NCBI GenBank assembly: GCA_042408215.1
Contig: JAYFMW010000030.1
Coordinates: 1-64,000, forward strand
Source: Microcoleus sp.
GTDB taxonomy: Bacteria; Cyanobacteriota; Cyanobacteriia; Cyanobacteriales; Microcoleaceae
Length of the DNA: 64,000 nt
Direction of reading: 5' to 3'
How positions within the stretch are numbered: the stretch's first letter is position 1; each line of letters starts with the position of its first letter. Shown here one piece after another: positions 19,401 to 54,788 of this stretch. The notes beneath the pieces were generated by a model. The model had not been told where the DNA came from, searched no databases, and saw only the letters and a list, made by a program, of their open reading frames with translations. A program made the position numbers and the translations under genes.

Positions 19401-22400
19401 AATCAAACAACTCGCTATATCTATGATGCTTTAGGACGGTTAATTGAAACCATTTATCCCGATAGCACACCTGGAAACCTCGCAGATAACCCTAGAACTA
19501 AAAGCGAATACGATAAGGCAGGTCGCATAACTGCTTCTACCGACGAACGAGGCAACCGTACTGAGTATGAGTATGATAAGGCAGGTCGTCGAACCCTGGT
19601 TCGCGATGCACTGAGGCGTGAAACTACTTATACCTACGATGCGATGGGGAACCTGCTAACTGAAACGGATGCCCTAGGTCGAACGACAAGGTATGCTTAT
19701 GATAAGGTGGGACGCAGAACAGAAACTTACTTGGCCGATCGCACTGGCGCCATAACCAAATACAATAAAGCGGGACTCAAAGTTGCCGAAACAAATCAAG
19801 CCGGTCAAACAACTAATTTTGTTTACGATGCCCTAGATAGACTGGTTGAAGTAATTCATCCAGATAGCACACCTAACGACCTGTCTAACAACCCCAGAAC
19901 TAAAACAGAATATAACGAACTAGGTTGGGTTATTGCTTCCATTGACGAGTTGGGCAATCGTACTGAATACGAATATGATGCAGTAGGTCGCATAATTGAG
20001 TCTCGCAGTAGCTGTGCTTGTCGCCGCAAAACCTACACCTATGACGAGTTTGGAAATCGGATTACTGAAACCGACCAACTAGGACGTACTAACAGGTTTG
20101 TATATGATGAGCTAGGTCGCATCAAACAAACTTATTTTGATGACAACACTTATACAACTAATGTTTACGACGACCTCGGTCGCATCATTTCCACAACCGA
20201 CCAAGCCGGCAAGAAAACGGCGTTCGAGTACGATGTTCGAGGACAACTCGTTGCCGTAGTAGATGCTTTGCAACAAAGAACTGAATACGGCTACGACTTC
20301 AGTGGCAACTTAACCAGCATTAAGGATGCAAACAACAATATTACCCGCTACGAGTACGACAAACTCGGTCGTCGCATTGCTGTAATTTTGCCCAAAGAAC
20401 AGCGGTCAGAAATCACCTATGATGCTGTTGGAAATGTGTTGAGTGCCAAAGATTTAAATGGCAAAACCGTTACTTATGAGTACGACAAACTTAACCGCTT
20501 GGCTGCCGAAAAATTCCCCGATGGAACCTCGCTAAAGTATACTTACACGAGTACCGGACAGCGCCAAACAGCAACTGAAACAAAGGGTGGAATTGTTCGC
20601 ACTACGACTTATGAATACGACGAACGTGATCGCCTTGTTTCTCGAACTGAACCTGATGGGCGGAAAGTAGAGTATACTTACGACCAAGTTGGCAATATCG
20701 CTGCGGTAAAAACTCCTTCGGGTACTGCGATCAACACTTATGACAAGTACAACCAGCTCAAAACTGTGACTGACCCTGACGGTGGATTGACGGAGTACAT
20801 TTATGACAAAGCTGGTAACCTCATCCGCACACAATTGCCTAACGGTACTGTTGAAATTCGCGAGTACGACAAGCTGAATCGCTTGACTTTTACGAAAAAC
20901 TTTAGGGTCGATCCTGTATCGGGGCAGGAGGTGGTAATTTCTAGTTATCGCTACACTCTTAATGCGGCAGGACAGCGGACGAAAGTAGAGGAAAATAGCG
21001 GTCGGATTGTTGAGTACAGCTACGATGATTTGTATCGATTGATTGAAGAAAAGATTGTTGACTTTGTTGCGGGCGATCGTACTATCCAGTATGGCTATGA
21101 TGAGATAGGAAACCGCGTGACCCGCAATGATTCAATACAGGGGTTGACAACTTACACCTATGATGAAAATGACAGGTTACTGAATGAAACCCTCAACGGT
21201 CAAGTCACTACTTACGCTTACGACAACAACGGCAATCTCCTTTCCCGTTTTAAGAACAATACTGATAAAGCAGTCAACACTTGGGATTTTGAAAATCGCT
21301 TGATAGGGGCCCAGGTAACAGATGCTTCGGGAACTCGCAATATTGAGTACCGATATGACGCTGATGGGGTGCGGGTGGCAACAATAGTTAACGGACAAGA
21401 AACTCGTTATTTGATTGATGCCAATCAGTCTCATGCTCAAGTATTGGAAGAGTATTCTCCCAATGGAAATTTGCAAGCATCTTATGTTTACGGATTGGAT
21501 TTGGTTTCGACTGAGAGAGGGAGCGATCGGGTGTTCTATCATGTAGATGGGCTGGGAAGTACGAGAGCTTTAACTAATGGCGCTGGCAATGCGATCGACA
21601 CTTATACTTATGATGCTTACGGGAATTTAATTGGGAAAACAGGCAATACAGTTAATAACTACTTGTATGCGGGCGAGCAGTACGATCCGAATTTGGGTGA
21701 CTATTACTTGAGGGCGAGGTATTACGATACGGAAACCGGACGCTTTGGCGCTAGAGATCCGTTTGAAGGGGTTTTAACTGAGCCGCTGTCTTTGGCGAAG
21801 TATTCTTATGTTCATGGAAATCCGGTGAATGCAACTGACCCGAGTGGACTGTTTTTACAGGAACAGAGTTCAGTTATGTCCATTCTTACTATTTTGACAA
21901 CGATGACCTATATCATGGGTAGATCTCCAATAGGGACTCTTAGTACACTAGATGGGGACAATGCCTTAGTTCCTGGATATTTAAAAAATACCAGCCATAC
22001 AGGAGTTAATAAGTTCCTGAATACTGCAATAACTGGAAAATATTACCAGATTATAAGAAAAAAAGTTCAAGAGTGTAACACAACGGTTGGAGCAGGTAAC
22101 TGTGACTTGGAGGGATTCCCAATTATTGTTTGGGGACACGAGATACCAGAAATTACGCAACATACGCAAGAGGCTATTGTCCAGACTGGGCAGTCTTTCC
22201 TAGCTCGCATTTCCCCTGGGTGGAACAATACTCCTACAGGCCGTGTGAAAAAATATTCAAACGGAGCCGAATATCCAGCTCCGTGGTATGATTTTACGCC
22301 AGAGTGTCCTTGGGATAACGATAATCCCATGCGATACTTTAATTCTCGCTCTGGTCGAGACTGTGATGAGTACCCATACAACTCTACTTTACAAGGTGGT

Positions 22401-22652: not shown

Positions 22653-22660
22653 AGAAAGTT

Positions 22661-23827
22661 ATGACTTCAGAATTAACCAACGCTTTAAACCGAATCTTAA
22701 GCTGGATAGAGCGACATGAACCCTCGTGGATTGAGTATCTATACCCTGGCTTATCAAAGGATGAGATAGATGACTTAGTAAGAGATTTACCACTCCAATT
22801 TCCTCCTGAACTCTATGAACTATATCAGTGGAAAAATGGTGCAGTAGAAGGAGATGAGTGGAAGGAAACAGCTTGGATCTTTCATAGTTGGACTTTTAGA
22901 CCTCTACAAGAGGTCGTTTCAGGGCTGCGCCGGGAGAGTTCCAGATATCAAATAAATAATATAATCTATATAGATCTAACTAAGTTTTACTGGGAAAGTT
23001 TTAATTATTTAAGTATTTTTTATCACATTTTATGGGAAGATAATGGGTGCGTTTTAATTAATAACATACTAAATTTTTGTCCGATAATTTTTCAGCGACT
23101 TGAAGAAGGAGAGTTAACTTTACTTGAAAAGTATACAAGTTTAACCAGTATGATGCTAACCATCGCAGAATGTTATGAAGCAGGAGCTTACTTTATAGGG
23201 GATTATATTTCTCGCAACCCTGAAAAAGAATATCAAATTTGGCGTAAATATAACTCCCAGATTATAGAAATTGCTATACAAGCTATTCAGCAAGGCTCTT
23301 TGTGTGGTCGGTTTTTTACATATTTCTCCAACGACCTAATCGAATTTAAAGACCCAAGAACTGTGGAGCCTCTAATTCAAGGGTTGCAATTACTCAATCA
23401 TCAGAATGTAGAGCGATTGAACCAGCAGAATAACGATCCATTTCTCTATTACGATCCCAAAGAAGAGGTAGCCAGAATTTTGGGAGAGTTAGGCGATACT
23501 AGAGCTGTGCCTGTTCTAATTGCCACTCTCAAAGACGATTGTCATAATAATTGGGATTACCAAACTAAAGTCAGTGCAGCAAAGGCTCTGGGTCAGCTCA
23601 AAGATGAACAAGCAACTTACCCTCTCATTGAAGCTTTACAAAATAGCGAGGGTGAAGTTCGACATATGGCAGTTTGGGCGTTAGGTGAAATCGGAGATTT
23701 AAGAGCAGTAGACTCTCTAACTGATGCTTTGCGAGATAGTGATTATAGGGTAAAACAAGCGGCAAATGAAGCCTGGGATAAACTGGCTGCAAAATTTCCT
23801 GAGATTGATGAAGAAATTCCTTTTTAA
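22661..23827 (+). CDS. Immunity protein: SMI1/KNR4 (SUKH) domain plus PBS-lyase HEAT repeats
   Basis: LYPGLSKDEID...FPPELYELYQWKNG (SUKH). AAKALGQL.D..A..PLIEAL HEAT repeats. Starts 8 nt after the toxin stop. Confidence 0.85.
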   Translation: MTSELTNALNRILSWIERHEPSWIEYLYPGLSKDEIDDLVRDLPLQFPPELYELYQWKNGAVEGDEWKETAWIFHSWTFRPLQEVVSGLRRESSRYQINNIIYIDLTKFYWESFNYLSIFYHILWEDNGCVLINNILNFCPIIFQRLEEGELTLLEKYTSLTSMMLTIAECYEAGAYFIGDYISRNPEKEYQIWRKYNSQIIEIAIQAIQQGSLCGRFFTYFSNDLIEFKDPRTVEPLIQGLQLLNHQNVERLNQQNNDPFLYYDPKEEVARILGELGDTRAVPVLIATLKDDCHNNWDYQTKVSAAKALGQLKDEQATYPLIEALQNSEGEVRHMAVWALGEIGDLRAVDSLTDALRDSDYRVKQAANEAWDKLAAKFPEIDEEIPF

Positions 23828-23830
23828 TTT

Positions 23831-26800: not shown

Positions 26801-28279
26801 AATGACCCTAGTGGGAATAATCGGGTTGTTAGTTATACTTACGATGCTGTGGGGAATCGGTTGACTAAGACTGATTCGGTGAGTGGGGTAACTACTTATA
26901 CTTACAATAGTTTGAATCAACTCTCTACGTCTGTAACTAATGGTTTAACTACTACTTATATCTACGATAGTAATGGGAATTTGATTTCGGAGGTGACTGG
27001 AAGCAATTCTACTGTTTATCGGTGGGAGAATGATGGTGAGAATCGGTTGATGGGGGTGACGGTTAATGAGGGTGGTGTTACTCGGAATGTTGGGTATCAA
27101 TATAATGCTCAGGGGATAAGGGTTGGTAAGGTTGTTGATGGGGTGGAGACTCGGTATTTGATTGATGAGTTACAGCCTTATTCTCAGGTTTTGGAGGAGT
27201 ATGATGCTGCGGGTAATGCTAAGGGTTCTTATGTTTATGGGTACGATTTGATTGGTAAGTTGCAGGGTGGTCAATCGTCGTTTTATCACGTTGATGGGTT
27301 GGGTTCGACTCGGTTGCTGACGAATGGTTTGGGTGGGATTACTGATAGTTATGCTTATGATGCTTATGGCAATTTAATTGCTTCGGCTGGTGGTTCTAGT
27401 AATGCTTATTTGTTTGCTGGGGAACAGCGGGATTCTGAGACTGGGTTGGATTATTTGCGGGCGCGATATTATGACCCGTTTTTAGGGAGGTTTGTTTCGG
27501 CTGATGCTTATGAGGGGACGCTGGATGACCCGATGAGTTTGCATGATTATCAGTATGCTCATGCTAATCCGGTTGTTAATACTGATCCATCAGGCTTTAT
27601 CACTCAATCAGAGCTAACAGCCATGTTTAAGATCATTGATATCCTGGTGACAATTGCTAATCCAGACCCTTTGAGTATTGCTTTGCTAGTTACTCCCCCG
27701 GGTGTACCGGCTGGCTTTGTAAAAGGACTGAATAAGGTTTGGAACTCAGCCGCACGTGGACCTCTGTTTGCTAGGATGGCTAAAGGAGTTGCAAATGGTG
27801 CAGCGTTGTTTGTTAAGGGAGAAGAATCAGCGCTATCTGCATACCAATTCCTCTTTGGAGATCTAAAATTGCTCCCTTTCATTAGCGATGAATATCTTGA
27901 AGCACTAAAAGTTTCATTAAATTTGGGTAAAGGTTATAAAGTAGTTGACTTTGTTGCAGAAGGGAAGAAAGGGCTTATATTTGTGGAAGCTAAGCCCAAA
28001 CTGACCTCAAAATATATAAATCAGGCTGTTGCTCCAGGTGGTAAATTTGTTGGAACTAAAGATATATTGGAAAAACTCTATGGAAAAGGAGGTGACGCTT
28101 TTCCAGGCATAGAAAAACAGATAATTACATCCACAGATTTATCAGAGATAGCCACTCGTACAGGACGTGCTTATTGGAGAAAGACAACTGGTTTACCTGG
28201 TGAATTCCAACTTTTTAAGGGGGCTGAGCCAGTTATGGCGAACGATCTACCAGTGTTTCTCCAAGAAGTAGTGAACTGA
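23831..28279 (+). CDS. Orphan Rhs cassette 2 (5'-truncated; ORF 23909-28279): Rhs cage plus PD-(D/E)XK nuclease-like toxin
   Basis: Near-identical to the main gene from ELGINTV to YDSRGNV. YD repeats. NPVVNTDPSG at 27584. Tip VVDFVAEGKKGLIFVEAK. No credible start codon. Confidence 0.85.
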
Positions 28280-28325
28280 CGATTTTAATTTACGCTAACA
28301 GTGTGAGGTTTACGAGCAAGTAAAA

Positions 28326-30056: not shown

Positions 30057-30185
30057 TTATCAATAAATATGTCTTGAGGATTGGACTACGGAGCCACACG
30101 GATCAAACTTAAAGTTCTCCCACGACTTCTTCCAATCCTCTCCCAAAAGCTAAATATAGATCGCAAACTAACTTCCACTTCCCCC

Positions 30186-30215
30186 TGTACAAAAGCCACA
30201 CACACAGTATAAAAT
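30186..30215 (+). promoter_or_regulatory. Candidate sigma70 promoter TGTACA-N18-TAAAAT
   Basis: Both hexamers and the 18-nt spacing are conserved in the second copy at 55662-55691, while the spacer has diverged. Confidence 0.5.
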
Positions 30216-30243
30216 GCAACAAAATACCGCTGTACAAACAACC

Positions 30244-30954: not shown

Positions 30955-30965
30955 AGGATAAGATT

Positions 30966-39605: not shown

Positions 39606-39665
39606 CAATGAAAATTGCATATTTTTCAGCACCGACTAAAGCTTTGTTATACAAGTATAATGCTT

Positions 39666-39694
39666 TTGCATAAATGATTTAAGCTTGCTATAAT
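39666..39694 (+). promoter_or_regulatory. Sigma70 promoter TTGCAT-N17-TATAAT with extended -10 (TGcTATAAT)
   Basis: Perfect -10, TG extension and 17-nt spacer in the toxin-immunity intergenic gap. Confidence 0.65.
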
Positions 39695-39729
39695 AAAGCT
39701 GGCTAGGATGGTGGAGAATTTACCAAAAG

Positions 39730-40221
39730 TTGATAAAATTTATGTATCTTGAGAAATTCAAAGCACGGTTCGCAGAGTTACAGCATTTATTTCCATACAA
39801 ATTGTTGTCTTGTACGGAGGAACAAATCCACTCCCTTGAACGACAATATGGGCTAACTCTTCCTATGGCTTATAAACAGTTTCTACTGTGGGGAGGGGTT
39901 TGCGCCGGAGGACTTTTTGAAGGTTCTAACTATTCTTATGACGATCTTTCAGAACTGCGAGAAGGAGCTGAAGGACTTTTGGAGAGGGATGAGTTTCCAG
40001 AGCCACTTCCAAAAGACGCATTCGTACTTATGATGCATCAAGGTTATATATTTTGGTTGTTCAAAACTTCTGAGGGTGACGATCCACCCGTTTATGGTTA
40101 TGAAGAGCGTGACGTAGGAGTTCCACCAGTTCCTTTCAAAAAAATCTCTTCTAGCTTCAGTAAATTTTTAGAAGAAGCATTAGAAGAAGCATCTAATAGA
40201 CTCAAAAGGTTGCAAGAATAA
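39730..40221 (+). CDS. SMI1/KNR4 (SUKH) immunity protein (alternative start ATG 39742)
   Basis: CTEEQIHSLERQYGLTLPMAYKQFL...HQGY.F...GDDPPVY; follows the deaminase toxin. Confidence 0.88.
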   Translation: MIKFMYLEKFKARFAELQHLFPYKLLSCTEEQIHSLERQYGLTLPMAYKQFLLWGGVCAGGLFEGSNYSYDDLSELREGAEGLLERDEFPEPLPKDAFVLMMHQGYIFWLFKTSEGDDPPVYGYEERDVGVPPVPFKKISSSFSKFLEEALEEASNRLKRLQE

Positions 40222-40289
40222 ATTAGTGGAATCGCAATTCTTTTAGATTAGTTTCTCAAAGTTCCTCCGCTGAATTGGTACTGGCACCC

Positions 40290-43200
40290 CTCGGCATGGC
40301 ATTCGACACCAGCCGGCATGACATTCTCCGAAGGACTGATTAGTTGGACACCCGGAGTCTCCCAGCAAGGAACCTATCCCATCACCGTCAGAGTTAGCGA
40401 CGGTTTGGGAGGTTTAGCTACTCAAACATTCAACCTAACAGCCGATAATATTGCCAACAATCGCCCACCGAGTATTGATTCTACTCCCGCAGAACAAATT
40501 ACCAATCTCGCCAAGCTTTATCAATACAATTTGACTGGTAGCGATGCGGATGGAGACAGGTTGCTGTGGAGTTTAGACAAAGCACCATCCGGGATGATTG
40601 TTGACCCCCTATCTGGTTCTTTACGCTGGCAGCCGACGGCGGAACAAGTGGGAGAACATACTGTTTCTGTAAGAACAATTGACGGCAACGGTGGTTATGC
40701 AGTTCAAGAATTCAGTCTGACTGTCAGGGGAATAAATACGCCACCTACTATTGTTTCTAATCCTCCAACTTCATCTGCAACAGGACAAGTTTATACCTAT
40801 GCAGTTGCGGCTAAAGATTTGGAAAATGACCCGCTGACTTTCAGTTTAGTCAGCCATCCTGTCGGCATGGCAATTGACAGCAACGGCAGGATTCAATGGA
40901 CTCCGAATCCTACTCAAATCGGGCAGCATTCTGTGGAAGTTGCGGTGACTGATAAGCAGGGGGCAATTGCTACTCAAACTTTTACTGTCACTGCCGGAAC
41001 TACTGCTATCAACCTTCCCCCAACAATCACTTCCACACCTACATTCACAGCCTCACCAGGACGCCCTTACAGCTACCAAGTAACTGCCGCCGATGCTGAC
41101 GGTACTATCTCGCAATACCAGTTATTGCAATCTCCTACTGGGATGACAATTAATTCAGCTACTGGTGTTGTTACTTGGAACAATCCGACTGCTGGAAACC
41201 ATCAAGTGGTAGTCGGGGCTGTTGACAATTCGGGTACGGGTGCAGCCCAAGGTTTTGAGTTAATTGCCAGGGCTAATTCAGCAGCGGTTGTGCCAACTAT
41301 TCCGATTCAATCTGTTTCGCCCGGTGCCAGTTATCGCTACGATTTGAAGGCGACTGATGCGAAGGTCGATTTGTTGACTTTTGCTTTAATTCAATCTCCC
41401 AGCGGCATGACAGTTGATGAATTCGGGCGGATTAGTTGGAAGCCGAATGCGGATAATATCGGCAATCATCCGGTTTCTGTTAAGGTGACTGATACTTTTG
41501 GAGAAAGCGTTACTGTTTCTTACAATTTAAGCGTTGTCGCCGATACTGTCGCCCCTAAAGTCAACCTAATTGCTAGCAATAATACCGCTAATCTTGGTGA
41601 TTCCGTCACCTTCACCGTTAATGCTGTCGATAACGTGAAAGTCGAGTCTTTAGGCTTAACTATCAACGGCACTCCTGTTGCTATAGATGCACAAGGAAGA
41701 GCAACTGTCAAGTTAAATAACTTAACTCCCATCACGGCAATTGCCACTGCTAAAGATGCGGCCGGAAATGTGGGGAATGCGACTCAAGTTGTCAGGGCGA
41801 TTGACACTACTGATGTCAATGCGCCAATTATCAACATCAATTTAGCGGATGATGTTGATGTTTCTGCACCTCTGGTAATTCGAGGTACGATAACTGACAG
41901 CAATTTGGATTACTATACTTTGTCAGTAGCCCCGGTTGGTAGCAGTCAATTTAAGGAAGTTTATCGGGGAACTACTGCTGTCAATAATGGAGTAATTGCG
42001 ACATTTGACCCGACTGTTTTGGCTAACGGCGCTTACACTCTCAAATTCACTGCCTTTGATACTAACGGCAACGGTTCTACTACTGAAAGAACGGTCAATG
42101 TTGCGGGTGATTTGAAGTTGGGGAATTTCCGCTTATCCTTTACCGATTTGACGGTTCCGGTGGCGGGAATTCCGATTAACGTGACTCGGACTTACGATTC
42201 TTTGAATGCCAACAATAGCGATGATTTCGGTTACGGCTGGCGGATGGAGTTCCGGGATACTGATTTGAAGACTTCGCTAAAAGCTGACCCGATTTACGAA
42301 GAATTGGGCATCAATACCGTAGCATTTGACAGCAAGACTAAGGTATTCATCACCTCATCACTTCATCACCCTACCCGGAGGTAAGCGGGAAACCTTTACT
42401 TTTAAGCCGACTCCGAGTCATTTGAATCAGTATTTAGGGGTGGCTGGGCCGGGGGCTGCGATGTACAAGCCGGCTTTTGAGTCTCAAAAGGGTTCGACGG
42501 TGACTCTGACGGTTAAGGATGCGAATTTGATACGGAATGAGTACGGCGAGTATTACGGAGTTAACGGGCAGCCCTTCAATCCCGAAAATCCTGCCTTTGG
42601 TAGTGTTTATGTGTTGACTACCCAAGAGGGATTGGTTTACGAGATTGATGCTAAAACTGGAGACTTGCTGACTGCTACTGATGCGAATGGGAATAAGCTG
42701 ACTTTTAGCGATGCGGGGATTGCAAGTTCGACTGGTAAGTCGGTGACTTTTGAGAGGGATGTTGCGGGGAGGATTGTCAGTGTTGTTGACCCGGATGGGA
42801 AGAAGGTTAAGTACGAATACGATGCGAAGGGGGATTTGGTTGCCGCCACCGACCAAGAGCAAAACAAAACAGAATTCGTTTACAACACCGCTCGACCTCA
42901 CTATTTAGAAAAAGTCATCGACCCGCTAGGAAACACGGGAGTCAGAACTGAATACGATGACAAAGGTCGCTTGAAGAAAATAATTGACGCAGACGGCGAC
43001 CCCGTAGAGTTGATTTACGACCCAGACAACTCAATTCAAACCGTCAAAGATGCTTTCGGCAATCCCACTACCTATGTCTACGATTTGCGCGGCAATGTTG
43101 TCAAACAAGTCAATGCGTTAGGTCAAGAAACTAACTTCAAGTACGACGATAACAACAATTTAATCGAAACAAAAGATGCCGCCGGATTGGTAGCAAAATA

Positions 43201-46200
43201 CACCTATGACGCTAGCGGCAATCTCTTATCCCGTACCGAACCCTACTGCGGCTGTCCGGGTACGGTGCCTGGAATCACTAACTACACCTACAATAAATAC
43301 GGTCAGCCTACCTCCATTGTCATGCCAACAGGGGCATCCATAAAAATGGAGTACGATCGCGCTGGCAATATGCTAAAAATGCACGATGGACTCGGTAATG
43401 TCATCCAATCCTACGTCTACGATTCCCAAGGTCGAGTCGTTCAAGAAACCGATACCTTCGGCACTACTTATTACGGCAATTTCGATGCTTTTGGCAACCC
43501 CCGCTGGACGAAAGATGCGTCGGGTAACGAAACAACAATGACTTACAACGCTAAAGGTTTGTTGGAAACCATGACTGAAAATGGCGTTACTTCTACCTTC
43601 CAATATGACGGGCTTGGACGGCAAACCAGAGCTGACTACGGTGACGGTCTGTGGGTAGAATACGATTATGAAGGAGCAAGAGCAGATTGGACGACTGTAG
43701 AAGCCCCAACTATCGGCCGCATCGAACGCAAGTTTACGGATGACGGGAAGTTGGGAGGTTGGGTGACGAACGGCGGCGGCGAAATTAAATTTACCTACAA
43801 TGAAGCAGGTCAGTTGGAAACGGAAACTGACCCTAACGGTAGCGTTACCCGGTACGGCTACGACCAAATTGGCAGGGTTAAAAGCGTCAAAGATGAATCG
43901 ACGGGGGTGGAAACTATCTACCACTACGACGCGCTGGTAGGCGTTGACCCCGACCCAGGCGTAGCAGATAATTTGATAAGTAAGTTAGCAGGAACAACTG
44001 TGGTTTTGGATGCCAACACCCGCTACACGACCAGCTATACTTACAACTCTAACGGTCAGATGAAAACTATGACTGACCCGCGCGGTCAGGTCTGGAAGTA
44101 CCGCTACAATTCCAATGGAACGACAGTTATCGACCCGTTGGGAAGAGAGACAACTTCAGTACAGTCTCCTAATTACTTGCCCGTTGAAACGATTTATCCC
44201 GACGGAACCAAGTCGAAAGTTGAGTATCTTTTCAGCAACAACTTGCAGGAAGCGAAAGATTATCCGACTCGAATTGTAGACCGGGGCGGCAATGACCGCA
44301 AGTTTACTTACGATGATTTGGGACGGTTGAAGACGGTTACGGATTTGGGCGATGCTGTCTATACTTATCACTACGGTGAAAGCGGGTTGGAACGAGTGAC
44401 CGGGCCGAATCAAGCAACTTTGCTGTCCTATCAGTACGAGGATGGAAATCTCAAGAAAATTATCTATCCCGATGGCGGTGAAAAGGAATTTATTTACAAT
44501 TCACTTACCAACCGCCTCGAACAAATGAAGTTGCCCCAGCGGAGTAACTGTAAGTTACGAGTATGATGCGGCGGGACAGGAAAAGCGCAGGGTTTCCACA
44601 TTGGATGGAGAAGTTGTTTCTAACTGGGATGCAGAAACCGGTCAGCTTTTAAGCGTGACGGATGCTGCGGGAACGACTGCGTATCACTACGACCCCGATA
44701 CGGGTGCGCTGGCAGGTTTGGATTATCCTAATGGCGGCAGCATTCGCTACGAACGAGATGGTTTGGGTCGAGTTGAGAAGGTTGCGGTTAAAGCTGATAA
44801 GACTGCGCCTGATTCTACTGCTTACATAACTGAATACAGGTACGATGCGAATGGCAATGCGGATCGAGTGAAGGCAACTTCTCCCGGCGGTCAAGTGTTA
44901 GAAACTGCGATGGTTTATGATGAAGTAAACCGCCTCAAAGAAAGGACTTTGCCGAATGGGGTGAAGACGGTTTACCAGTACCAGGATAAGACTGATTTGG
45001 TTGAGAAGATTACTCATTTTGCTCCTGATGGGGTGACGGTGTTGGCATCTGTTGCTTACGAACGTAAGGGAATTGGAGAACCGACTAAGATTACTAGGGA
45101 AGATGGTTCTTATGTCAGGTTGGAGTACGATGCTTCGCTGCGGGTGGATAAGGAAAGTTATTACAGTGCGGCTGGGGTTTTGTTGCAGGAGATTGATTAC
45201 GGTTACGATGCTGCTGGCAACCGTCAAGTTGTATCAAACGGTTTGGCTGCGGGGACTTACAGTTACGAGAATGTCAATCAGCTTGCTTCGGTGACGAATG
45301 GGTCGAATGTGGAGACTTATACTTATGATGCTGGGGGACGGGTGGATGTTGTTAATAGAAATGGGGTGATTCGGGATTTTGATTACAATAGTGATAATTT
45401 GATTTCGCAGGTGAAGGATGCTGCGGGAAATGTGTTAGTTGAGTACGATTATGATAGTTCTGGTCGCAGGGTTGAGGTGAAGAGTGCGGCGGGTGAAAGG
45501 GATTATCTGGTTGCGCCTTCAATGGGTGATGGTTTGGAGTCGCCGCAGTTGGTGATGGATGGGAATGGTAATGCTAGTGGGTGCTTATGTGTATGCAGGA
45601 AATCAGCCGTTGATGCGGTTTGATGGCAGCGGGAATCCGGTTTATTATTTGACTGATGCGATGGGTTCGGTGATTGGGTTGGCGGGTGCTAGCGGTCAAG
45701 GTGTTGCTAAGTTTAATTATGATAGTTTTGGCAACCTAAAAAGTTCGTCTGGGACAGCAGCTTCTTTACCTGGGAATGCAGGTGGGGATTTCCGGTTCCA
45801 GGGTCAGTGGTTGGATGAGGAGACTGGTTTGTATAATTTCCGGGCTCGGTATTACGATCCTGAAACGGGGCGGTTTATGAGTTACGATCCGATAGATTTG
45901 ATTGAGATGGAGCCGGAGAGCAGCAATCCCTATCAGTTTGTTTACAACAACCCTCACGTTTATAGCGATCCGACTGGGATGTTTTCGATTATGGAACTTA
46001 ATGCAACAATAAGCGTACAAGATGCACTTAGCGCTTTAAAAACTTATGCCAGCAACGAAATCAAAGGCTACTTTAAAAATAAAATAGGCGAAGCTATGGC
46101 GGATTCATTCACTGGAATTGTCAAGCGTCTTCTGCCCTTCGCTGGTTTTGAGTTGGACCAACTTCCTGGGCAATTCAAAGATGGCACTAAGTTTGAGAAT

Positions 46201-46713
46201 TTCCTTAAAGGACAAATTTGCGGAATCTTTAATAGTGTAGGCGGACCTTTTCTAAATCGCTTGTGGTTAGAGCCAGGCGTCCTACAAGATGGGACACCAA
46301 CCCACGTAGGATTAAATTGCCAGGAATTATTCATTGAGGCAGACAGAAAAGCTTTTGGTACGTTAAAAAATATTGGGGGTTCGCGACCCGACTTCATCTT
46401 CAAAGAAGGCTCTCCTATGGATACAAATAATAAAGCTTATCTAATTGGAGATGTCAAATTAACTTTGCATGCGGCGCTGAAAGATATAACTGGTATAGGA
46501 AAGAAAAATTCTCCCTCTAAGCAGTGGACAGCCATTCGAGCATATGCTGAGAAAAACGTATTGCCAAAAACGGCTCTTTATATTACATTCAAACATGAAA
46601 GTAGCGGAGGAGGTAAACTTTCCGCTCAAGAAGAACAACAAGCAATTGCAAAAGCGGCAAAGAGTGCCTTCGACAAAGGAGTGTTACTGATCCTTGCTAA
46701 TCTTGTTGATTAA
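40290..46713 (+). pseudogene. Rhs cassette 4, 5'-truncated and broken by three +1 frameshifts (ORFs 40318-42384, 42326-44566, 44601-45623, 45559-46713); tip is a PD-DXK nuclease-like toxin
   Basis: Continuous Ig/Rhs homology across frame changes at ~42355 (16-nt insertion), ~44534 (CCCC run) and ~45572. DPTG at 45967. Tip SRPDFIF...LIGDVKL. Confidence 0.85.
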
Positions 46714-46739
46714 CTAATTTTTTAGGGATATTAAAAACC

Positions 46740-47648
46740 ATGCAAAATTCGTCCCCCCTGAAACATAAGGATTTACTAGAATCGGCAGTCTGTGATTTTT
46801 TTAGGGGGAATACCAAAAATTTAGAAGAGCTAATCCAAAGCGGATTTGACATTAATATCAGACTTGATGATAATAAAACTGCGCTTATGGAAGCAGTTCG
46901 AGCCGCAGATCTTTATGTTGTTAGATTGCTGGTCGAAGCAGGGGCTGATGTCAACGCTGAGACGGGTGGATACACAGCTTTATGGGATGCAGCCTACTGG
47001 GGATTACAGGAAATTTTTGACTATCTTGCACCCTTAACTTCTTCAGAGTTAAGACAAGAAGCAGAAGAGATACTTTCGGAAGGTTTACTGCGTCGTCAGA
47101 GACTAGATGATACTTTGACAGAAGACTTCATATCCGCTGCTGCAATGGGCAATGTTGAGGCAGTTATTGCTGCTATTCAAAGTGGAGTTAATGTTAATGC
47201 AATTGGTTCCGACGAAAATCCAGCTCTTACTATAGCTGCATACTGGGGTTGGGTAGCTGTGGTAAAGCTTTTGTTAGAGCATAAAGCTGATGCAAATTGT
47301 TTTACAGAAGATCAGCATGAAACTCCATTAACAATGGCTGCTCAAGGTGCGGGACTCGCACGATTCTCACACATAACTTCAGTGACAACAGATGACAACC
47401 AAGTCGCAATTATCGAACTTCTTTTGGCAGCAGGAGCAGATGTGAATGTAAGAACAAAAAAAGGTTGGACGGCTTTAGAAAACGCAGCTGTTTCTGGAAG
47501 TATTAGGGCAGTTAAGCTTTTGCTGGAAGCTGGTGCTGATATTAATGCCAAAGATATTGGGGGTTATACTGCGCTCAGCCGTGCGAAACAAGAAAAAAAT
47601 CAAGAGATTATTCAACTTCTTTTAGAGTGTGGAGCAAAAGAAGATTGA
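46740..47648 (+). CDS. Ankyrin-repeat protein, probable immunity to the cassette-4 toxin
   Basis: TALMEAV...VRLLVEAGADVNA and GWTALENAA...LLLEAGADINAKD. Confidence 0.9.
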   Translation: MQNSSPLKHKDLLESAVCDFFRGNTKNLEELIQSGFDINIRLDDNKTALMEAVRAADLYVVRLLVEAGADVNAETGGYTALWDAAYWGLQEIFDYLAPLTSSELRQEAEEILSEGLLRRQRLDDTLTEDFISAAAMGNVEAVIAAIQSGVNVNAIGSDENPALTIAAYWGWVAVVKLLLEHKADANCFTEDQHETPLTMAAQGAGLARFSHITSVTTDDNQVAIIELLLAAGADVNVRTKKGWTALENAAVSGSIRAVKLLLEAGADINAKDIGGYTALSRAKQEKNQEIIQLLLECGAKED

Positions 47649-47667
47649 AGCAAAAGGTTTTTGAGAT

Positions 47668-48645
47668 ATGGCTCGGTTTAATTATGATAGTTTTGGTAAT
47701 TTGCGGAATGCTTCGGGGACGGGGGCTTCTTTACCTGGAAATGCGGGTGGGGATTTCCGGTTCCAGGGACAGTGGTTGGATGAGGCGACTGGGCTGTACA
47801 ATTTCCGGGCTCGGTATTATGACCCTGAGACGGGGCGGTTTATGAGTTACGATCCGATCGAGCTGATTGAGATGGAACCCGAGAGTAGCAATCCTTATCA
47901 GTTTGTTTACAACAACCCTCATGTTTATAGCGATCCTACGGGGATGTTTTCGATGGCTGAACTTAACACCGCTGATGCTATGAACAACATCCTAAGCTCT
48001 ATGCAGACTTATGGCAGGCAGCAAACTCTTGAGTATTTTAAACAAAAAACAGGTGAAGCTGTGGGTCAAATATTGTTCAACGCCCTTGACAGCTTTATCC
48101 CCACTAGCAACCCATATCGAAGAGGAATACAAGCAGCCCTCGATGCAAGAGAAAGAGATACGGCAGGGAATATGTTTGAGTTTTTCTTGACAGATACGAT
48201 ATGTGAACTCCTGGAACCTATACAGTCATCTATCAACGATATCTGGCTTCAGCCACAGGTAAATAGAGCTGGTTTTGCTGGGGATAATGGCTATCATTGT
48301 CCTGCGAAAGTAGGATTTGATGACATTAGAAAAAACTGGTTTAGACCAGACTACATCGTCAGACGAGGGGAACCAACGAACCATAAACTAAAAAGCTGGT
48401 TAGTCGGTGATATTAAACTCTCTGTAAAAACTGTTAATGACTCCTATGTTGGAGCAAATGGTGGTTCTCCCAGGCAACCAGACCAGTGGTCTGCTATTAC
48501 TAACCACGCCAAAAAACAGGGTTACTTCATAACTGGATTTATAACACTGTTTGATGGAGGTAAACAGAGACAATTATATCTTCAAAACTTGCAGAAAAAA
48601 GCGGTGGAATCGGGAGTTATTGCTTTGATTGTTTCTATAGTATAG
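47668..48645 (+). CDS. Short orphan Rhs-CT cassette 5: last ~95 aa of the cassette-4-type core plus a paralogous PD-DXK toxin
   Basis: 47671-47965 is near-identical to 45706-45998. DPTG at 47932. Tip FRPDYIV...LVGDIKL. Confidence 0.88.
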   Translation: MARFNYDSFGNLRNASGTGASLPGNAGGDFRFQGQWLDEATGLYNFRARYYDPETGRFMSYDPIELIEMEPESSNPYQFVYNNPHVYSDPTGMFSMAELNTADAMNNILSSMQTYGRQQTLEYFKQKTGEAVGQILFNALDSFIPTSNPYRRGIQAALDARERDTAGNMFEFFLTDTICELLEPIQSSINDIWLQPQVNRAGFAGDNGYHCPAKVGFDDIRKNWFRPDYIVRRGEPTNHKLKSWLVGDIKLSVKTVNDSYVGANGGSPRQPDQWSAITNHAKKQGYFITGFITLFDGGKQRQLYLQNLQKKAVESGVIALIVSIV

Positions 48646-48684
48646 TAGAATACATTCATTGCAGAACATTGGTCAAAAATAATA

Positions 48685-49338
48685 ATGTCGCTGATTTATT
48701 TAAGGATTAATGGGGATGACGAATCAAAGCAAGGAGACACAAGACTCCATGACGCAATTGCCACGGGCGATTTGTCACGAATACAAAAATTTATTGAACA
48801 GGGGATTGATGTCAATCAATTAAACTATAAAGAGGGTTTTACCCCCCTAACACAAGCAGTTTTTTTGGGTCATTTAGAAATTTTAAAAGTTCTTATTGAA
48901 GCAGGGGCAAATTTAAGGCAATTCGACAATACACCTTCCACACCATTATGCTTAGCTGCTGAACTAGGTAATATAGAAGCGGTACGACTATTACTGGGGG
49001 CAGGAGCTAATGTCGATCTTGGAGGTTTAGAAAGTCCATTAGGGTGTGCTGTAAATTACGGTCATATAGATATTGCCAATATATTAATTAGCGCAGGTGC
49101 TAAGCTGAATTCAACAGATGAAAGTGGCATAACTCCTTTAATGCTTGCAGCGATATCAGGGCGTCTTGATTTGGCGCAACTTTTGGTTGAAGCTGGTGCA
49201 GATGTAAATGCAGTTGATGAGTATAAAAATACAGCTTTAAGGAAAGCTTCCGAAACCGGACACCAGGATGTGTTCAACTACTTATATCCCTTAACAGATG
49301 ACAAATTTCCCTATATTGATGAAGAAATTCCCTTTTAA
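48685..49338 (+). CDS. Ankyrin-repeat immunity protein ending in IDEEIPF
   Basis: GFTPLTQAV, GITPLMLAA...LLVEAGADVNA. Confidence 0.9.
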   Translation: MSLIYLRINGDDESKQGDTRLHDAIATGDLSRIQKFIEQGIDVNQLNYKEGFTPLTQAVFLGHLEILKVLIEAGANLRQFDNTPSTPLCLAAELGNIEAVRLLLGAGANVDLGGLESPLGCAVNYGHIDIANILISAGAKLNSTDESGITPLMLAAISGRLDLAQLLVEAGADVNAVDEYKNTALRKASETGHQDVFNYLYPLTDDKFPYIDEEIPF

Positions 49339-49470
49339 CCTAATTAGTAATTTCTCTCTTTTAGAGGCTGTTAGAAGTAACAATGTGCAAAAAGTACGCG
49401 CGGAGATTGCTAATACGAATCAAATCGGAGCATTATTTTTAATGCTTTAGACTCGGACTCGGACTGTCGA

Positions 49471-52400: not shown

Positions 52401-54494
52401 TAGATTACACTTACGATTCGGTTGGCAACCGCTTGACTAAGAATGATTCGGTGGCGGGGTTGGCTAATTATTCTTACGATGGCAATAACCGCCTGCAACA
52501 GCTAACTCAGGGTTCTCAAACTACTGCTTTCAATTACGATGATAACGGTTCGATAATACGGCGTTCTGACGGCACGCAAACTGTTACTTACGACTGGTTT
52601 AATGACGGCGAAAACCGCTTGGCGGGAGTTACTAATTCTGGTTCTGGAGGAATTTCTCAAACTGATTTTGTTTACGATGCTTTCGGCAATCGGGTAGCCA
52701 GCATTGATAACGGCGTCAGAACGAATTATTTGACTGCTTCAACTGGCGGTTTGCCGTCCGTTTTGATGGAGTACGATGCGGCGGGTCAAGTTACTGCCGA
52801 TTACACTCACGGACTCGGTTTGGTTTCTGCCACTCGCAACGGCCGGGAGGGATTCTACCACACCGACGGCATCGGTTCGACGCGGGCGATTACTGATAAT
52901 GTTGGTTTAGTAACTGACCGCTACACTTACGATGCGTTCGGCGGGTTGTTGAACCAAACGGGGACTTTCGGTAATTCATTCCAATTTGCCGGGGAACAGC
53001 GGGACGGTTCTACCGGATTGGATTATTTGCGGGCGCGGTATTACGACCCGAGTTTGGGGCGGTTCATCTCGAAAGATGCGTTTGCTGGCTCTTTAAGCGA
53101 CCCGATGAGCCAGCACGATTACCAGTACGCGCACGCGAATCCGGTGCGGTTTACAGACCCGACAGGCTACTTCTCGATGGGCGATCTGATGGCGACGCTG
53201 AGTGGGGTGTCGGCGCTGGCCGCGATCGGTGGGGTTAGTTTCGGTACGGGTTATATCGGTGGTGCTGTTGCTGGTGGGGCTAGCGGTGAGGAAGTTTTAG
53301 GAATGTTTGGAGAATGGGGTGCTGGTTTTGCCAACGGTGTATCGAGTGGTTATTTAACTGATGTTTATGAATACTCTACTGGGAATAAGATTGAACCGAA
53401 TCATGCGATGCTGTACAGTGCTGGGAATGTGGCTGGGATTGGGGTGTCTTTTCTGACTGGGATGAAGGCTGCTACTTGGGCTACTACTGCGATGGGGCCT
53501 TTGAAGTGGGTAGGTGTTGGGCTGGGTGCGGTAGATACGGGATTCGATGGTTATGGGGCGGCGACTGCTACTAATAATCTTAATCAGAGTTACCAGAATA
53601 ATGGTAAGTTTGAGGTTGAGGATGCTTGGAATCTGAGTGCTTATGTGCCTTTTGGTGTGGCGGCGATTAAGGGTGTTAAGGGTTTATTGGGTGTTGATAA
53701 TGCCCTTAAGAACAGTGCTGACAGTGCGGTAACAAAGGCTGGGAGTTGTTTTGTTGCTGGTACGGAGATTCTCACTGTTGACGGTATCAAGAATATTGAG
53801 GATATTCAAGTTGGAGATTGGGTAATTGCTGACGATCCTACTACTCCGGGGGGGATTGAGGCGAAGGAGGTTTTGGATACGTTTGATAATGAGGTAACTG
53901 AGCTGTTACGATCTTTATGTGGATGGGGAGGTGATTTCTACTACTGGTGAGCATCCTTTCTGGGTGCCGAATTTGGGATGGGTAAAAGCGAAGGATTTGG
54001 TTGTTGGATCGTTGTTACAGACGGATAAGGAGACGTTTGTTGATGTCGATAAGATAGAGCGGCGCGAGGGGAATTTCAAGGTTTACAATTTTGAGGTTGA
54101 GGGGTTCCCGACTTACTTTGTCTCGGAGTTGGGGATTCTGGTTCATAATTCATGCTATGACCCGGACAATCCAAACAGAATAGACTCAAGCACATTAAAT
54201 ATTAATGACTTGATTCAAGCATCTGGGGAACCTATTGGTAAAGGTGGTTTAACAAAAGCAGGCCGTGCATTAGATAAACACGCAGCAGGTCAGAGAGGAA
54301 GTTCTCCTTTTCCACCTTTAACAGGTAATAACGCGAACAAAAACTTAATAGCTGAACAACAAGTAAATGAGATACTCAATCATCCTGATGCTGTTTTTAT
54401 TAGACTTGGAAGAGGGGGAATTGAAGCTAGAGTTCCTGATGGACGTGGAATAAGGTTTGAAGCAGATGGTAGTTTTAGTACATTTGTAGATTAA
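49471..54494 (+). pseudogene. Rhs cassette 6 (5'-truncated; ORFs 49583-53950 and 53919-54494): Rhs cage, Gly-rich hydrophobic segment, polymorphic-toxin HINT domain (frameshift ~53906), small C-terminal toxin
   Basis: DPTG at 53156. CFVAGTEI...TTGEHPFW...VYNFEVE...LVHN-S HINT motifs are split across a +1 shift. Tip GRALDKH...PDGRGIRF. Confidence 0.85.
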
Positions 54495-54504
54495 GAGGGT
54501 CAAA

Positions 54505-54756: not shown

Positions 54757-54788
54757 ATTAATTCTCCGTTAGTACAATCTCCCTGATT

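What the first reader, a model, noticed from the sequence alone, without database searches (positions are those of the whole stretch)
21849..53236. All released toxins begin with a type IV pilin-like N-terminal helix: possible pilus-hijacking toxin delivery
Seen: right after the DPxG site, the otherwise mostly unrelated tips share one helix. CT1 (21849) LFLQEQSSVMSILTILTTM. CT2 (27599) ITQSELTAMFKIIDILVTIANP. CT3 (38934) FSSSAEFSVANNIRDTLTKI. CT4 (45982) FSIMELNATISVQDALSAL. CT5 (47947) FSMAELNTADAMNNILSSM. CT6 (53171) FSMGDLMATLSGVSALAAI. Known: Rhs aspartyl autoproteolysis cuts about one residue after DPxG, and mature type IVa pilins begin FTLIELMIVVAIIGILAAIAIP (F1, E5, I12, L16, P22). Cleavage would expose F1-S-x-x-E/D5-L6 in CT4, CT5 and CT6. 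CT2 matches IIGILAAIAIP as IIDILVTIANP, including P22. CT1 and CT3 keep the E5/I12/L16 spacing one residue off. Inference: autoproteolysis may create a prepilin-peptidase-independent pilin mimic. It could let the toxin insert into, or be reeled in by, the retractile type IV pili that filamentous cyanobacteria use for gliding. Positions 7-11 are more polar than in true pilins, so it may instead be an amphipathic membrane-entry helix.
Basis: partly seen in the sequence, partly recalled or inferred. Interest (0 to 1): 0.88.

Follow-up and report, generated by a model that had tools for sequence, protein, structure and literature searches.

The report
Shared helix starting Rhs toxin tips
The toxin tips released from this cyanobacterium's Rhs proteins do begin with a shared helix that resembles a pilin's first residues, but it fails every test for being a pilin and is more likely the start of a reusable module that helps toxins enter target cells.

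Summary
All six tips read as written at the stated coordinates. The motif hydrophobic-[S/T]-x-x-[E/D]-hydrophobic sits directly after the Rhs self-cleavage site in 9 of 16 Rhs ends of this genome. It occurs in 36 of 143 tails from the 150 nearest Rhs representatives, against about 1% of random windows.

The pilin interpretation is only weakly supported.
- No tail matched Pfam N_methyl, and none of the 10 proteins scanned against NCBIfam matched a pilin family.
- Tails score about 0 bits on a cyanobacterial pilin model, where real pilins score about 56.
- Residues 6-22 are far too polar for a pilin.
- E/D at position 5 is present in only half of the tails.
- The residue before the cut is L/Y/M/F, not G.
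- Toxin domains follow, not a pilin head.

An in-register likeness of the consensus is nevertheless real: the commonest residue is the same at 12 of 22 positions, and the score beats every column permutation. I explain it by a generic helix start signal (capping box plus hydrophobic staple) followed by a small-residue helix-packing stripe.

Best reading: the helix is the first element of conserved modules of about 55-200 residues. These modules abut the cleavage site, occur only behind Rhs cores, and are combined with many different toxins. They probably act in membrane entry, as CdiA-CT entry domains do. That function is inferred, not shown.

The parts
21609..21851 (+). Rhs1 core end (TIGR03696) ending ...DPSG-L; predicted cut after L at 21851
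21852..21911 (+). CT1 first helix (FLQEQSS...). No S/T cap, acidic residue at position 4. Followed by a NucA/NucB-type DNase at about 22344-22484.
27356..27598 (+). Rhs2 core end ...DPSG-F
27599..27664 (+). CT2 first helix I-T-Q-S-E-L ... IIDIL ... NP. E5, I12, D14, L16, P22 conserved in relatives. Toxin domain unassigned.
38691..38933 (+). Rhs3 core end ...DPTG-F
38934..39167 (+). CT3 'module A'. Amphipathic helix 1 (cap shifted by one residue), acidic loop, then a hydrophobic Pro/Gly-containing second helix. A BURPS668_1122-family deaminase follows at about 39204-39587.
45718..45981 (+). Rhs4 core end ...DPTG-M (gene upstream split into four overlapping ORFs)
45982..46131 (+). CT4 two-helix N-terminal extension (model helices 3-21 and 27-50, pLDDT below 50), starting F-S-I-M-E-L
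46264..46710 (+). CT4 toxin domain, alpha/beta with a PD...(D/E)xK-like motif; probably a restriction-endonuclease-fold nuclease
   Evidence: fold matches weak only
47683..47946 (+). Orphan core-end fragment ...DPTG-M
47947..48084 (+). CT5 first helix F-S-M-A-E-L. Weak match to module A positions 1-46 (E 0.009). Toxin homologous to CT4 (28% identity).
52928..53170 (+). Rhs5 core end ...DPTG-Y
53171..53746 (+). CT6 'module B'. F-S-M-G-D-L helix running into a Gly/Ala-rich hydrophobic helix, then a conserved all-helical region of about 190 residues.
53747..54494 (+). Pretoxin HINT domain split between two frames near 53919-53950, then the distal cassette
22661..23827 (+). Candidate immunity gene (SUKH-1 + HEAT)
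39730..40221 (+). Candidate immunity gene (SUKH)
46740..47648 (+). Candidate immunity gene (ankyrin repeats)
48685..49338 (+). Candidate immunity gene (ankyrin repeats)

Best explanation
The shared helix is the first structural element of conserved 'pre-toxin' modules that begin exactly at the Rhs aspartyl self-cleavage site and sit between that site and the catalytic toxin domain.

Its opening pattern (hydrophobic 1, Ser/Thr 2, Glu/Asp 5, hydrophobic 6) is the textbook start signal of an alpha-helix. Ser/Thr is the N-cap, Glu sits at N3 (the capping box), and the flanking hydrophobic pair is the hydrophobic staple. Pilins, whose long helix also starts at residue 1-2, carry the same signal. 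Together with a stripe of small residues around positions 14-18, this explains the likeness.

Behind the cap come different continuations:
- an amphipathic helix plus a hydrophobic Pro/Gly helix (module A, the CT3 type);
- a Gly/Ala-rich hydrophobic helix and about 190 helical residues followed by a HINT self-cleaving domain (module B, the CT6 type);
- a two-helix extension (CT4/CT5).

Shown: the modules are real, abut the cleavage site, occur only behind Rhs cores, and are combined with many toxin types.

Inferred: this organism has no type VI injector, so the module probably carries the toxin across the target's cytoplasmic membrane, as the N-terminal entry domain of CdiA-CT toxins does. In module B the HINT domain would then cut the toxin free.
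For: Modularity. In all-against-all BLAST of the first 45 residues of 224 distinct tails, 59 fall into one cluster that includes CT3-CT6. That cluster is joined to 21 distinct clusters of C-terminal regions. Of the similar pairs, 204 are similar only at the N-terminus and 139 at both ends.

Module A profile (A3, 19 sequences). It found 22 proteins among 8000 scored candidates from the 5.8-billion-protein collection. All were Rhs proteins or orphan fragments starting in or at the core end. They carry six different toxin or processing families: PF01375, PF15643, PF15644, PF14424, PF14412 and PT-HINT. In 401 cyanobacterial genomes it matched in 4. The five strong matches (E 1.8e-15 or better) and CT5 begin directly or a few codons after a core end; the seventh, weak match (G215, E 0.008) was not checked against a core end.

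Space for a module. The recognised toxin domains start about 40-200 residues after the cut.

Module B. Its architecture is core | helix + Gly-rich region | PT-HINT | toxin, with TreTu_C in P0046 and SsdA_C in P0050. Eighteen members in my data share about 190 conserved residues.

Structure models. In both models the helix begins at residue 3, so the cap would be residue 2. In CT4, residues 1-56 form two helices with pLDDT below 50, separate from the better-predicted toxin domain. Module B is all-helical.

Hydropathy in module A. Helix 1 never reaches membrane-span hydropathy (0 of 19). The second region does in 9 of 19.

Residue preferences at the cap positions in 143 tails:
- position 1: F65, M16, Y13, L12;
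- position 2: T52, S43;
- position 5: E53, D18, Q12;
- position 6: L21, V20, I18.
These match the capping-box and N'-N4 hydrophobic-patch description in PMC11101637 (passages).

No type VI sheath gene (PF05943) was found in this 99.98%-complete genome.

Precedent. CdiA-CT entry domains need precise cleavage to become translocation-competent (PMC9424206, abstract).
Against: No experiment or structure shows membrane binding or translocation. Both models are of low confidence (mean pLDDT 66 and 53; N-terminal helices below 50), so packing cannot be judged.

The capping explanation is drawn from general protein knowledge. I could not test it on solved helices.

It does not by itself explain why columns 12-19 of the tails (I-I/A-G/N-I-L-A-G/A-I) track the pilin columns (I-I-G-I-L-A/S-A-I) better than any of 1000 column permutations.

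CT1 lacks the S/T cap.

The cap sits at offset 0 in 63 of the 74 [ST]xx[ED] boxes found in 72 box-bearing representative tails. Such strict spacing would also suit a function that needs the free N-terminus, pilin-like or not.

No homology to known CdiA entry domains was found; no Pfam family covers the modules.
Confidence: 0.55

Rival explanations
1. Pilin mimicry. Self-cleavage exposes an F1...E5 helix that behaves like a mature type IV pilin N-terminus and is taken up, inserted or reeled in by the target's type IV pilus or related machinery.
For: The consensus likeness is in register.
- The commonest residue is the same in tails and pilins at positions 1, 2, 3, 5, 6, 12-17 and 19, which is 12 of 22.
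- hhalign of 142 unselected tails against 42 pilins gave probability 79%, E 1.5e-5, score 11.9, positions 1-23 on 1-23. Motif-selected tails scored 23.7, against a maximum of 11.0 for motif- and hydropathy-matched random windows.
- Tails are enriched for weak pilin-model scores: 16 of 144 reach 5 bits or more, against 1 of 144 shuffled tails and 5 of 4059 random windows.
- A clostridial tail family shows E5, G14 and P22 in some members.
- The cap is almost always at the very first residue.
- Pilin genes are present in every genome checked.
Against: Curated HMMs.
- Pfam N_methyl: 0 of 6 tips at E<=1.
- 0 of the 20 most pilin-like tails at E<=10.
- Not among the 25 most-matched families in 104 representatives, where the families listed last have 2 members.
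- None of the genome's 6 N_methyl matches is at an Rhs end.
- No pilin family in NCBIfam for 10 proteins at E<=0.1.

My pilin model. Pilins score a median of 55.6 bits, tails a median of -0.4 and a maximum of 14.3. The six tips score CT2 5.4, CT1 2.5, CT5 0.1, CT6 -0.2, CT4 -4.2, with CT3 unreported.

Hydropathy of residues 6-22. Pilins have a median of 3.0 and a minimum of 2.0. None of the 36 F1-[ST]2-[ED]5 representative tails reaches 2.0, and they carry a median of 4 strongly polar residues. The pilin set was filtered for no polar residues at 6-20, so its 'zero polar' count is by construction.

Other features. E/D at 5 occurs in only 71 of 143 tails and F1 in 65 of 143. The residue before the cut is never Gly in the 16 own ends. 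CT2's family has an invariant Asp at position 14.

Topology. A pilin-like span would leave the toxin domain in the periplasm, the wrong side for nucleases and deaminases (inference).
Confidence: 0.05
2. Producer-side role. The helix serves self-cleavage or packaging inside the Rhs cocoon. It could present the scissile bond to the aspartyl protease plug, or tether the otherwise unfolded toxin, as the ordered linker reported for RhsP does.
For: The helix always abuts the cut. The motif goes with one core subtype (...NPVxxxDPxG-[L/Y]) and is rare behind other subtypes.

A preprint states that in RhsP the linker between core and toxin is ordered while the toxin is not. It also states that TMHMM tends to call the C-terminal cleavage site a membrane span (10.1101/2024.02.26.582050, passages).
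Against: Within the same core subtype, many tails have quite different residues after the cut (for example L|ATTV, L|SRIG, F|TPLY, N|FTEQ). The protease therefore seems not to demand the motif, assuming those proteins cleave.

The conserved region runs on for 55-200 residues and includes membrane-grade hydrophobic helices, more than a cleavage determinant needs.
Confidence: 0.2
3. Recombination scar. The conserved start is only the tail of the homology tract used to swap toxin cassettes, with no function of its own.
For: Between the CT4 and CT5 loci, DNA identity stays high (about 92%) through the first three codons after the cut. The E-L-N codons are also identical before identity falls to about 50%. 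Orphan cassettes start inside the core end.
Against: The motif is kept at the amino-acid level among tails whose cores and codons differ, in at least three phyla: cyanobacteria, Bacillota MAGs and an Acidobacteriota MAG. Conservation continues well past any junction, through module A (about 75 residues) and module B (about 190 residues).
Confidence: 0.1

Closest known systems
CdiA-CT N-terminal cytoplasm-entry domains (contact-dependent inhibition toxins)
   Same: Both are modular N-terminal parts of a polymorphic toxin tip that are combined with many different toxin domains. Both begin at a precise proteolytic site, VENN in CdiA and DPxG+1 here. In CdiA the exact new N-terminus is needed for membrane translocation (PMC9424206, abstract).
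   Different: The carrier is an Rhs cocoon rather than a CdiA filament. The cut is made by the Rhs protein's own aspartyl protease. No sequence relation to known entry domains was found. Function here is untested.
Pre-toxin domains of polymorphic toxins (PT-HINT, PT-VENN, PT-TG; Zhang et al. 2012, PMC3482391)
   Same: Both are conserved segments between the delivery part and the toxin. CT6 and its relatives carry PT-HINT directly behind module B.
   Different: Modules A and B match no Pfam or NCBIfam family. The 300,000 characters held of that paper contain no occurrence of 'pilin' or 'glycine zipper'.
Type IV pilin N-terminal helix (class III signal, Pfam PF07963 N_methyl)
   Same: F-[T/S]-L-x-E-[L/V/I] sits at the new N-terminus after an aspartyl-protease cut. 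Hydrophobic residues at 12, 13, 15, 16 and 19 and small residues at 14, 17 and 18 appear in the consensus.
   Different: The tails fail the curated HMMs. They are much more polar. E5 is not invariant. There is no Gly before the cut and no pilin head domain. The cut is made by a different protease.
Tse5-CT, an Rhs-encapsulated membrane-inserting toxin of Pseudomonas aeruginosa
   Same: A hydrophobic C-terminal fragment is released by the same kind of cut (L1168|I1169) and kept inside the cocoon until delivery to a membrane (PMC10684867, passages). CT6-type tails give weak glycine-zipper matches.
   Different: Tse5-CT is itself the pore-forming toxin and is delivered by a type VI system. Here the hydrophobic module precedes separate enzymatic toxins, and no type VI sheath gene was found.
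Helix capping box with hydrophobic staple
   Same: The positions and residue preferences agree: N' hydrophobic, N-cap S/T, N3 E/D/Q, N4 hydrophobic. Model helices start at residue 3.
   Different: This is a general structural signal, not a functional family. It says nothing about what the helix does next.

Membership tests
Type IV pilin N-terminal domain (PF07963 N_methyl / prepilin-type cleavage-methylation domain) | Match to the curated HMM above its cut-off (21.2 bits) | tested here: not met
   0 of 6 tips (E<=1). 0 of 20 chosen tails (E<=10). Not among the top 25 families in 104 representatives. The genome-wide scan finds 6 pilin genes, none at an Rhs end. No pilin family in NCBIfam for 10 proteins.
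Type IV pilin N-terminal domain | Gly at -1 after a short basic leader (prepilin peptidase site) | tested here: not met
   The residue before the predicted cut is Y6, L5, F3, M2 in the 16 own ends, and L61, Y52 in 143 representatives. The genome's own PilA has ...QDQG|FTLIE.
Type IV pilin N-terminal domain | Hydrophobic residue 1 (usually F) and near-invariant E5 | tested here: inconclusive
   F1 in 13 of 16 own tails and 65 of 143 representatives. E/D5 in 9 of 16 and 71 of 143. E5 in 42 of 42 pilins, which were selected by a pattern that demands it.
Type IV pilin N-terminal domain | Uninterrupted hydrophobic stretch from about residue 6 to 22 | tested here: not met
   Kyte-Doolittle mean for residues 6-22: pilins median 3.0 (minimum 2.0). 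Six tips: -0.28 to 1.76. 0 of 36 motif-bearing representatives reach 2.0.
Type IV pilin N-terminal domain | Globular pilin head after the helix | tested here: not met
   What follows is a DNase, a deaminase, a nuclease-like fold or HINT plus toxin.
Type IV pilin N-terminal domain | Profile-profile likeness to pilin alpha1 | tested here: inconclusive
   hhalign probability 79% (unselected tails) and 94% (motif-selected, circular), both above permutation and matched-window controls. Absolute scores are low (12-24). Short hydrophobic helices are prone to such matches (my knowledge).
Rhs C-terminal autoproteolytic core end | TIGR03696 match ending in PxxxxDPxG + one hydrophobic residue | tested here: met
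   16 matches over the cut-off in the genome, six of them at the finding's sites.
Rhs C-terminal autoproteolytic core end | Actual cleavage at that bond | not testable with these tools
   Inferred from Tse5 and RhsA.
Entry/translocation domain of polymorphic toxins (working analogy, not homology) | N-terminal part of the tip, exchangeable between toxins | tested here: met
   One N-terminal cluster of 59 tails is joined to 21 C-terminal clusters. Module A occurs with six toxin or processing families.
Entry/translocation domain of polymorphic toxins | Mediates passage of the target's cytoplasmic membrane | not testable with these tools
   There are only indirect hints: hydrophobic second helix in 9 of 19 module A sequences, weak glycine-zipper matches, and no type VI sheath gene.

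The most novel reading that the evidence does not exclude
Self-cleavage of these Rhs proteins manufactures a pilin-like N-terminus (F-T/S-L-x-E, then I-I-G-x-L-A) without a prepilin peptidase. The released module uses it to engage the target's type IV pilus, competence or type II secretion platform in the cytoplasmic membrane, as a way in or as a way to jam that machinery. The hydrophobic module B and clostridial-type tails would be the best candidates.
Probability: 0.05. Interest if true: 0.9.

Novelty: new variant of a known kind. Interest (0 to 1): 0.45.

Why it matters
How Rhs toxins that are not fired by a type VI system reach the cytoplasm of a target cell is unknown. This covers the Rhs toxins of cyanobacteria, Bacillota and Acidobacteriota. 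A conserved, exchangeable module that starts at the exact residue exposed by self-cleavage is a concrete candidate for that step, and it can be tested with simple mutants. It would extend the CdiA rule, that precise processing switches on an entry domain, to a second large toxin class.

My searches of the held library and the passages I read turned up no description of these modules or of the pilin-like consensus. That is not proof of absence from print.

Tried and rejected
1. P'-side requirement of the protease. I considered that the motif might simply be this. I gave it low weight because tails with unrelated first residues follow the same core subtype.

2. Variable spacing of the cap. I expected it to argue against a pilin-like register. 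It does not: among the 74 [ST]xx[ED] boxes in 72 box-bearing representative tails, 63 sit at offset 0. Only the own genome shows several shifted copies (4 at +1, 1 at +2).

3. Phyletic test against pili. It has no power, because pilin genes are in all 61 of 61 and 5 of 5 genomes checked.

4. Foldseek of the CT4 model against the PDB. No match at E<=0.001. Several weak rows are restriction-endonuclease-fold nucleases, which I used only as a hint.

5. Module B model. Too low in confidence (mean pLDDT 52.9) to send to a fold search.

6. Homologue searches for the CT4 and CT2 tails. They gave only 4 proteins and 1 protein, so the alignments are shallow.

7. Earlier notes of this scan. Nothing near this place.

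8. Complex prediction with PilA. Not run, because I do not claim binding and neither outcome would be decisive for hydrophobic helices.

9. Rows dropped. Of 280 core-end domain hits, 4 with an incomplete profile end and 10 without a literal [D/x]PxG were left out. Two of these (P0038, P0047) have tails starting L|FSA and L|FTI. Tails shorter than 25-30 residues and exact duplicates were also removed.

Full report
SETTING

The window is the first 64 kb of contig C30 of a 7.36-Mb genome. The genome is close to Microcoleus: two core ends are 97% and 93% identical to Microcoleus sp. S13_C3. The region is a classical polymorphic-toxin island on the + strand. It holds:
- five large or broken Rhs genes with Ig-like and cadherin-like repeats and RHS repeats;
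- one orphan core-end-plus-tip cassette;
- small genes of typical immunity families between them (SUKH, ankyrin, HEAT, TPR).

Among the tips, CT1 is a NucA/NucB-type DNase and CT3 a BURPS668_1122-family deaminase. CT6 contains a pretoxin HINT domain. CT2, CT4 and CT5 have no Pfam family. CT4 and CT5 are homologous (28% identity). They share a PD...(D/E)xK-like motif, and the model's alpha/beta domain gives only weak fold matches, several to restriction-endonuclease-fold nucleases.

The six strings are in the sequence at the stated places. The assumed cut, after the residue that follows DPxG, is what was found experimentally for Tse5 (Leu1168|Ile1169, N-terminal sequencing; PMC10684867, passages). 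It also fits RhsA, where density ends after W1350 of PxxxxDPxG[W/L/F] (PMC8765631, passages).

The genome has 16 core ends by TIGR03696. The first released residue is F in 13 of them. An acidic residue lies at position 5 in 9 and at positions 5-7 in 15.

HOW WIDE IS THE MOTIF?

I built a profile of 15 core ends that stops at the cut, so that tails could not influence the search (A1). I used it three ways.

(a) Against 1.84 billion representative proteins there were 264,868 hits at E<=0.001. The best 150 were taken.

(b) Against one genome per species, 79 loci were kept, mostly Paenibacillus and other Bacillota.

(c) TIGR03696 was run over 401 cyanobacterial genomes. 59 had a match, and 30 loci were fetched.

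From 280 domain hits I obtained 266 tails; 14 were dropped as listed under Tried and rejected.

In the 143 distinct representative tails the preferences are:
- residue before the cut: L61, Y52;
- position 1: F65, M16, Y13, L12;
- position 2: T52, S43;
- position 3: L50;
- position 5: E53, D18;
- position 6: L21, V20, I18.

The six-residue pattern hydrophobic-[ST]-x-x-[ED]-hydrophobic begins exactly at position 1 in 36 of 143 representative tails and 9 of 16 own tails. It does so in 5 of 24 of the cyanobacterial sample and 6 of 76 of the other-phyla sample. In random windows, 150 of 12,177 had it at any of seven offsets.

The motif therefore belongs to one core subtype (...NPVxxxDPxG-L/Y). It is not cyanobacteria-specific: it also follows core ends in Clostridia/Oscillospiraceae MAGs and an Acidobacteriota MAG.

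IS IT A PILIN N-TERMINUS?

By curated models, no.
- Pfam N_methyl matched 0 of 6 tips and 0 of the 20 most pilin-like tails even at E<=10.
- It is not among the 25 most-matched families in 104 representatives.
- Over the whole genome it finds six pilin genes and nothing at Rhs ends.
- NCBIfam gave only the Rhs core models, which end at the cut.

A model of 42 cyanobacterial pilin N-termini scores pilins at a median of 55.6 bits. Tails score a median of -0.4 and a maximum of 14.3. The six tips score between 5.4 (CT2) and -4.2 (CT4).

Residues 6-22 of pilins have a mean hydropathy of 3.0 (minimum 2.0). The six tips range from -0.28 to 1.76. None of the 36 motif-bearing representatives reaches 2.0. 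My pilin set was filtered to have no polar residue at 6-20, which makes part of that contrast circular.

The residue before the cut is never Gly. CT2's 'IIDIL...NP' is conserved in relatives, but with an invariant Asp at 14.

A REAL LIKENESS REMAINS, AND I REPORT IT FULLY

hhalign of the 142 unselected representative tails against the pilins aligns 1-23 on 1-23, with probability 79% and score 11.9. Tails without the motif still give 41%. Motif-selected tails give 94% and score 23.7. Random genome windows selected by the same three positions give a score of 8.2 +/- 0.7. Windows also matched for hydropathy give 9.3 +/- 0.8, maximum 11.0. Column-permuted alignments give at most 11.3.

Column scores of the unselected set sum to 8.1 bits for positions 1-6. 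They sum to 12.2 bits for positions 7-23, against 3.9 +/- 1.7 when those columns are permuted (0 of 1000 as high). The commonest residue is the same in tails and pilins at positions 1, 2, 3, 5, 6, 12, 13, 14, 15, 16, 17 and 19.

WHAT EXPLAINS THE LIKENESS?

Positions 1, 2, 5 and 6 are the classical start signal of a helix. They correspond to a hydrophobic N', a Ser/Thr N-cap, Glu/Asp/Gln at N3 (capping box), and a hydrophobic N4 (staple). This is as described in PMC11101637 (passages) and in the Munoz and Serrano papers it cites, which I did not read.

Both structure models start their first helix at residue 3. A pilin's long helix starts at the same place relative to its cut, so it carries the same signal.

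Positions 12-19 (I-I/A-G/N-I-L-A-G/A-I) form a hydrophobic stripe with small residues four apart. I recognise this from general knowledge as a helix-helix packing pattern. I regard it as convergent, but I cannot prove that.

WHAT THE HELIX BELONGS TO

The helix is the first element of longer conserved modules.

Module A (CT3 type; alignment A3) has three parts:
- helix 1, never of membrane-span hydropathy (0 of 19);
- an acidic Gly-rich loop;
- a Pro/Gly-containing hydrophobic helix that reaches that level in 9 of 19 and is often followed by basic residues.

Its profile finds 22 proteins, all Rhs or orphan fragments, with six different toxin or processing families behind it. In 401 cyanobacterial genomes it matches in 4. 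The five strong matches and CT5 begin directly or a few codons after a core end; the weak seventh match was not checked. CT5 matches it weakly (E 0.009).

Module B (CT6 type; 18 members) runs from the same start into a Gly/Ala-rich hydrophobic helix and about 190 conserved, predicted all-helical residues (low confidence). In several members it is followed by PT-HINT and then a toxin such as TreTu_C or SsdA_C.

In CT4, residues 1-56 are two low-confidence helices set apart from the toxin domain.

Overall, 59 of 224 distinct tails cluster by their first 45 residues and join 21 different C-terminal clusters. The big C-terminal cluster '0' is probably inflated by Gly-rich low complexity, because filtering was off.

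MECHANISM I THINK MOST LIKELY (55%)

No type VI sheath gene was found in this essentially complete genome. The released tip must therefore cross the target envelope on its own. A conserved, exchangeable, partly membrane-grade module that starts at the residue exposed by self-cleavage is the obvious candidate. This parallels CdiA-CT entry domains, whose activity needs the precisely processed N-terminus (PMC9424206, abstract).

In module B the HINT domain would free the toxin from the module. The idea that this is triggered in the reducing cytoplasm is my inference.

Shown: anatomy, distribution and modularity. Inferred: membrane action.

RIVALS
- A producer-side role in cleavage or packaging (20%). 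A preprint notes an ordered core-toxin linker in RhsP, and notes that TMHMM tends to call the C-terminal cleavage site a membrane span (10.1101/2024.02.26.582050, passages).
- A mere recombination tract (10%). The CT4/CT5 junction is compatible with it, but the cross-phylum motif and the length of the modules are not.
- Pilin mimicry (5%).

VERDICT

The pilus-hijacking interpretation is unsupported but not excluded.

The modules match no Pfam or NCBIfam family. My four literature searches on this point and the passages read found no description of them. I rate this as a new variant of a known kind, namely a pre-toxin or entry domain of polymorphic toxins.

Noticed in passing
window 40318-46713 (+): The Rhs gene that ends in CT4 is split into four overlapping ORFs (40318-42384, 42326-44566, 44601-45623, 45559-46713). 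It is either frameshifted or carries assembly errors.
   Followed up: no
window 53747-55347 (+): The pretoxin HINT domain behind CT6 is split between two frames. Profile positions 2-47 lie in the Rhs ORF ending at 53950, and positions 58-137 in the ORF 53919-54494. A further ORF (54862-55347) starts with only the last about 40 HINT positions. This looks like an orphan cassette that could recombine through the HINT end rather than the Rhs core end.
   Followed up: partly
window 1467-22652 (+): A single 7061-residue open frame carries DUF4114, many Ig-like/cadherin-like repeats, DUF6531 (the Rhs N-terminal plug), RHS repeats and a DNase tip. It is one of the largest Rhs proteins I saw here.
   Followed up: no
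loci L019-L095 (other phyla) and L096-L125 (cyanobacteria): The residue just before the predicted cut differs by lineage. It is H in 39 of 76 tails of the mostly Paenibacillus sample, E in 6 of 24 of the cyanobacterial sample, and L/Y in the subtype studied here.
   Followed up: partly
L098, L105, L122, L125, L024, L026, L093: In lineages without the motif, many Rhs tails still begin with a strongly hydrophobic, Gly-rich, membrane-span-like helix directly after the cut. A hydrophobic start of the released tip may therefore be a general theme.
   Followed up: no
P0127, P0134, P0137, P0149, P0152, P0154, L048, L057: A family of tails, some of them from Clostridia/Oscillospiraceae MAGs, reads Y|[M/K]-S-x-x-[E/G]...A-[V/I]-I-G-A-L...I-V-P-N. 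Some members have E5, G14 and P22. This is the most pilin-like group found, yet none matches Pfam N_methyl at E<=10.
   Followed up: partly
window 23909 and 49583 (+): The ORFs of the two roughly 1455-residue Rhs proteins begin without an obvious signal peptide or known trafficking domain. No type VI sheath gene was found in the genome. How these proteins leave the cell is open.
   Followed up: partly
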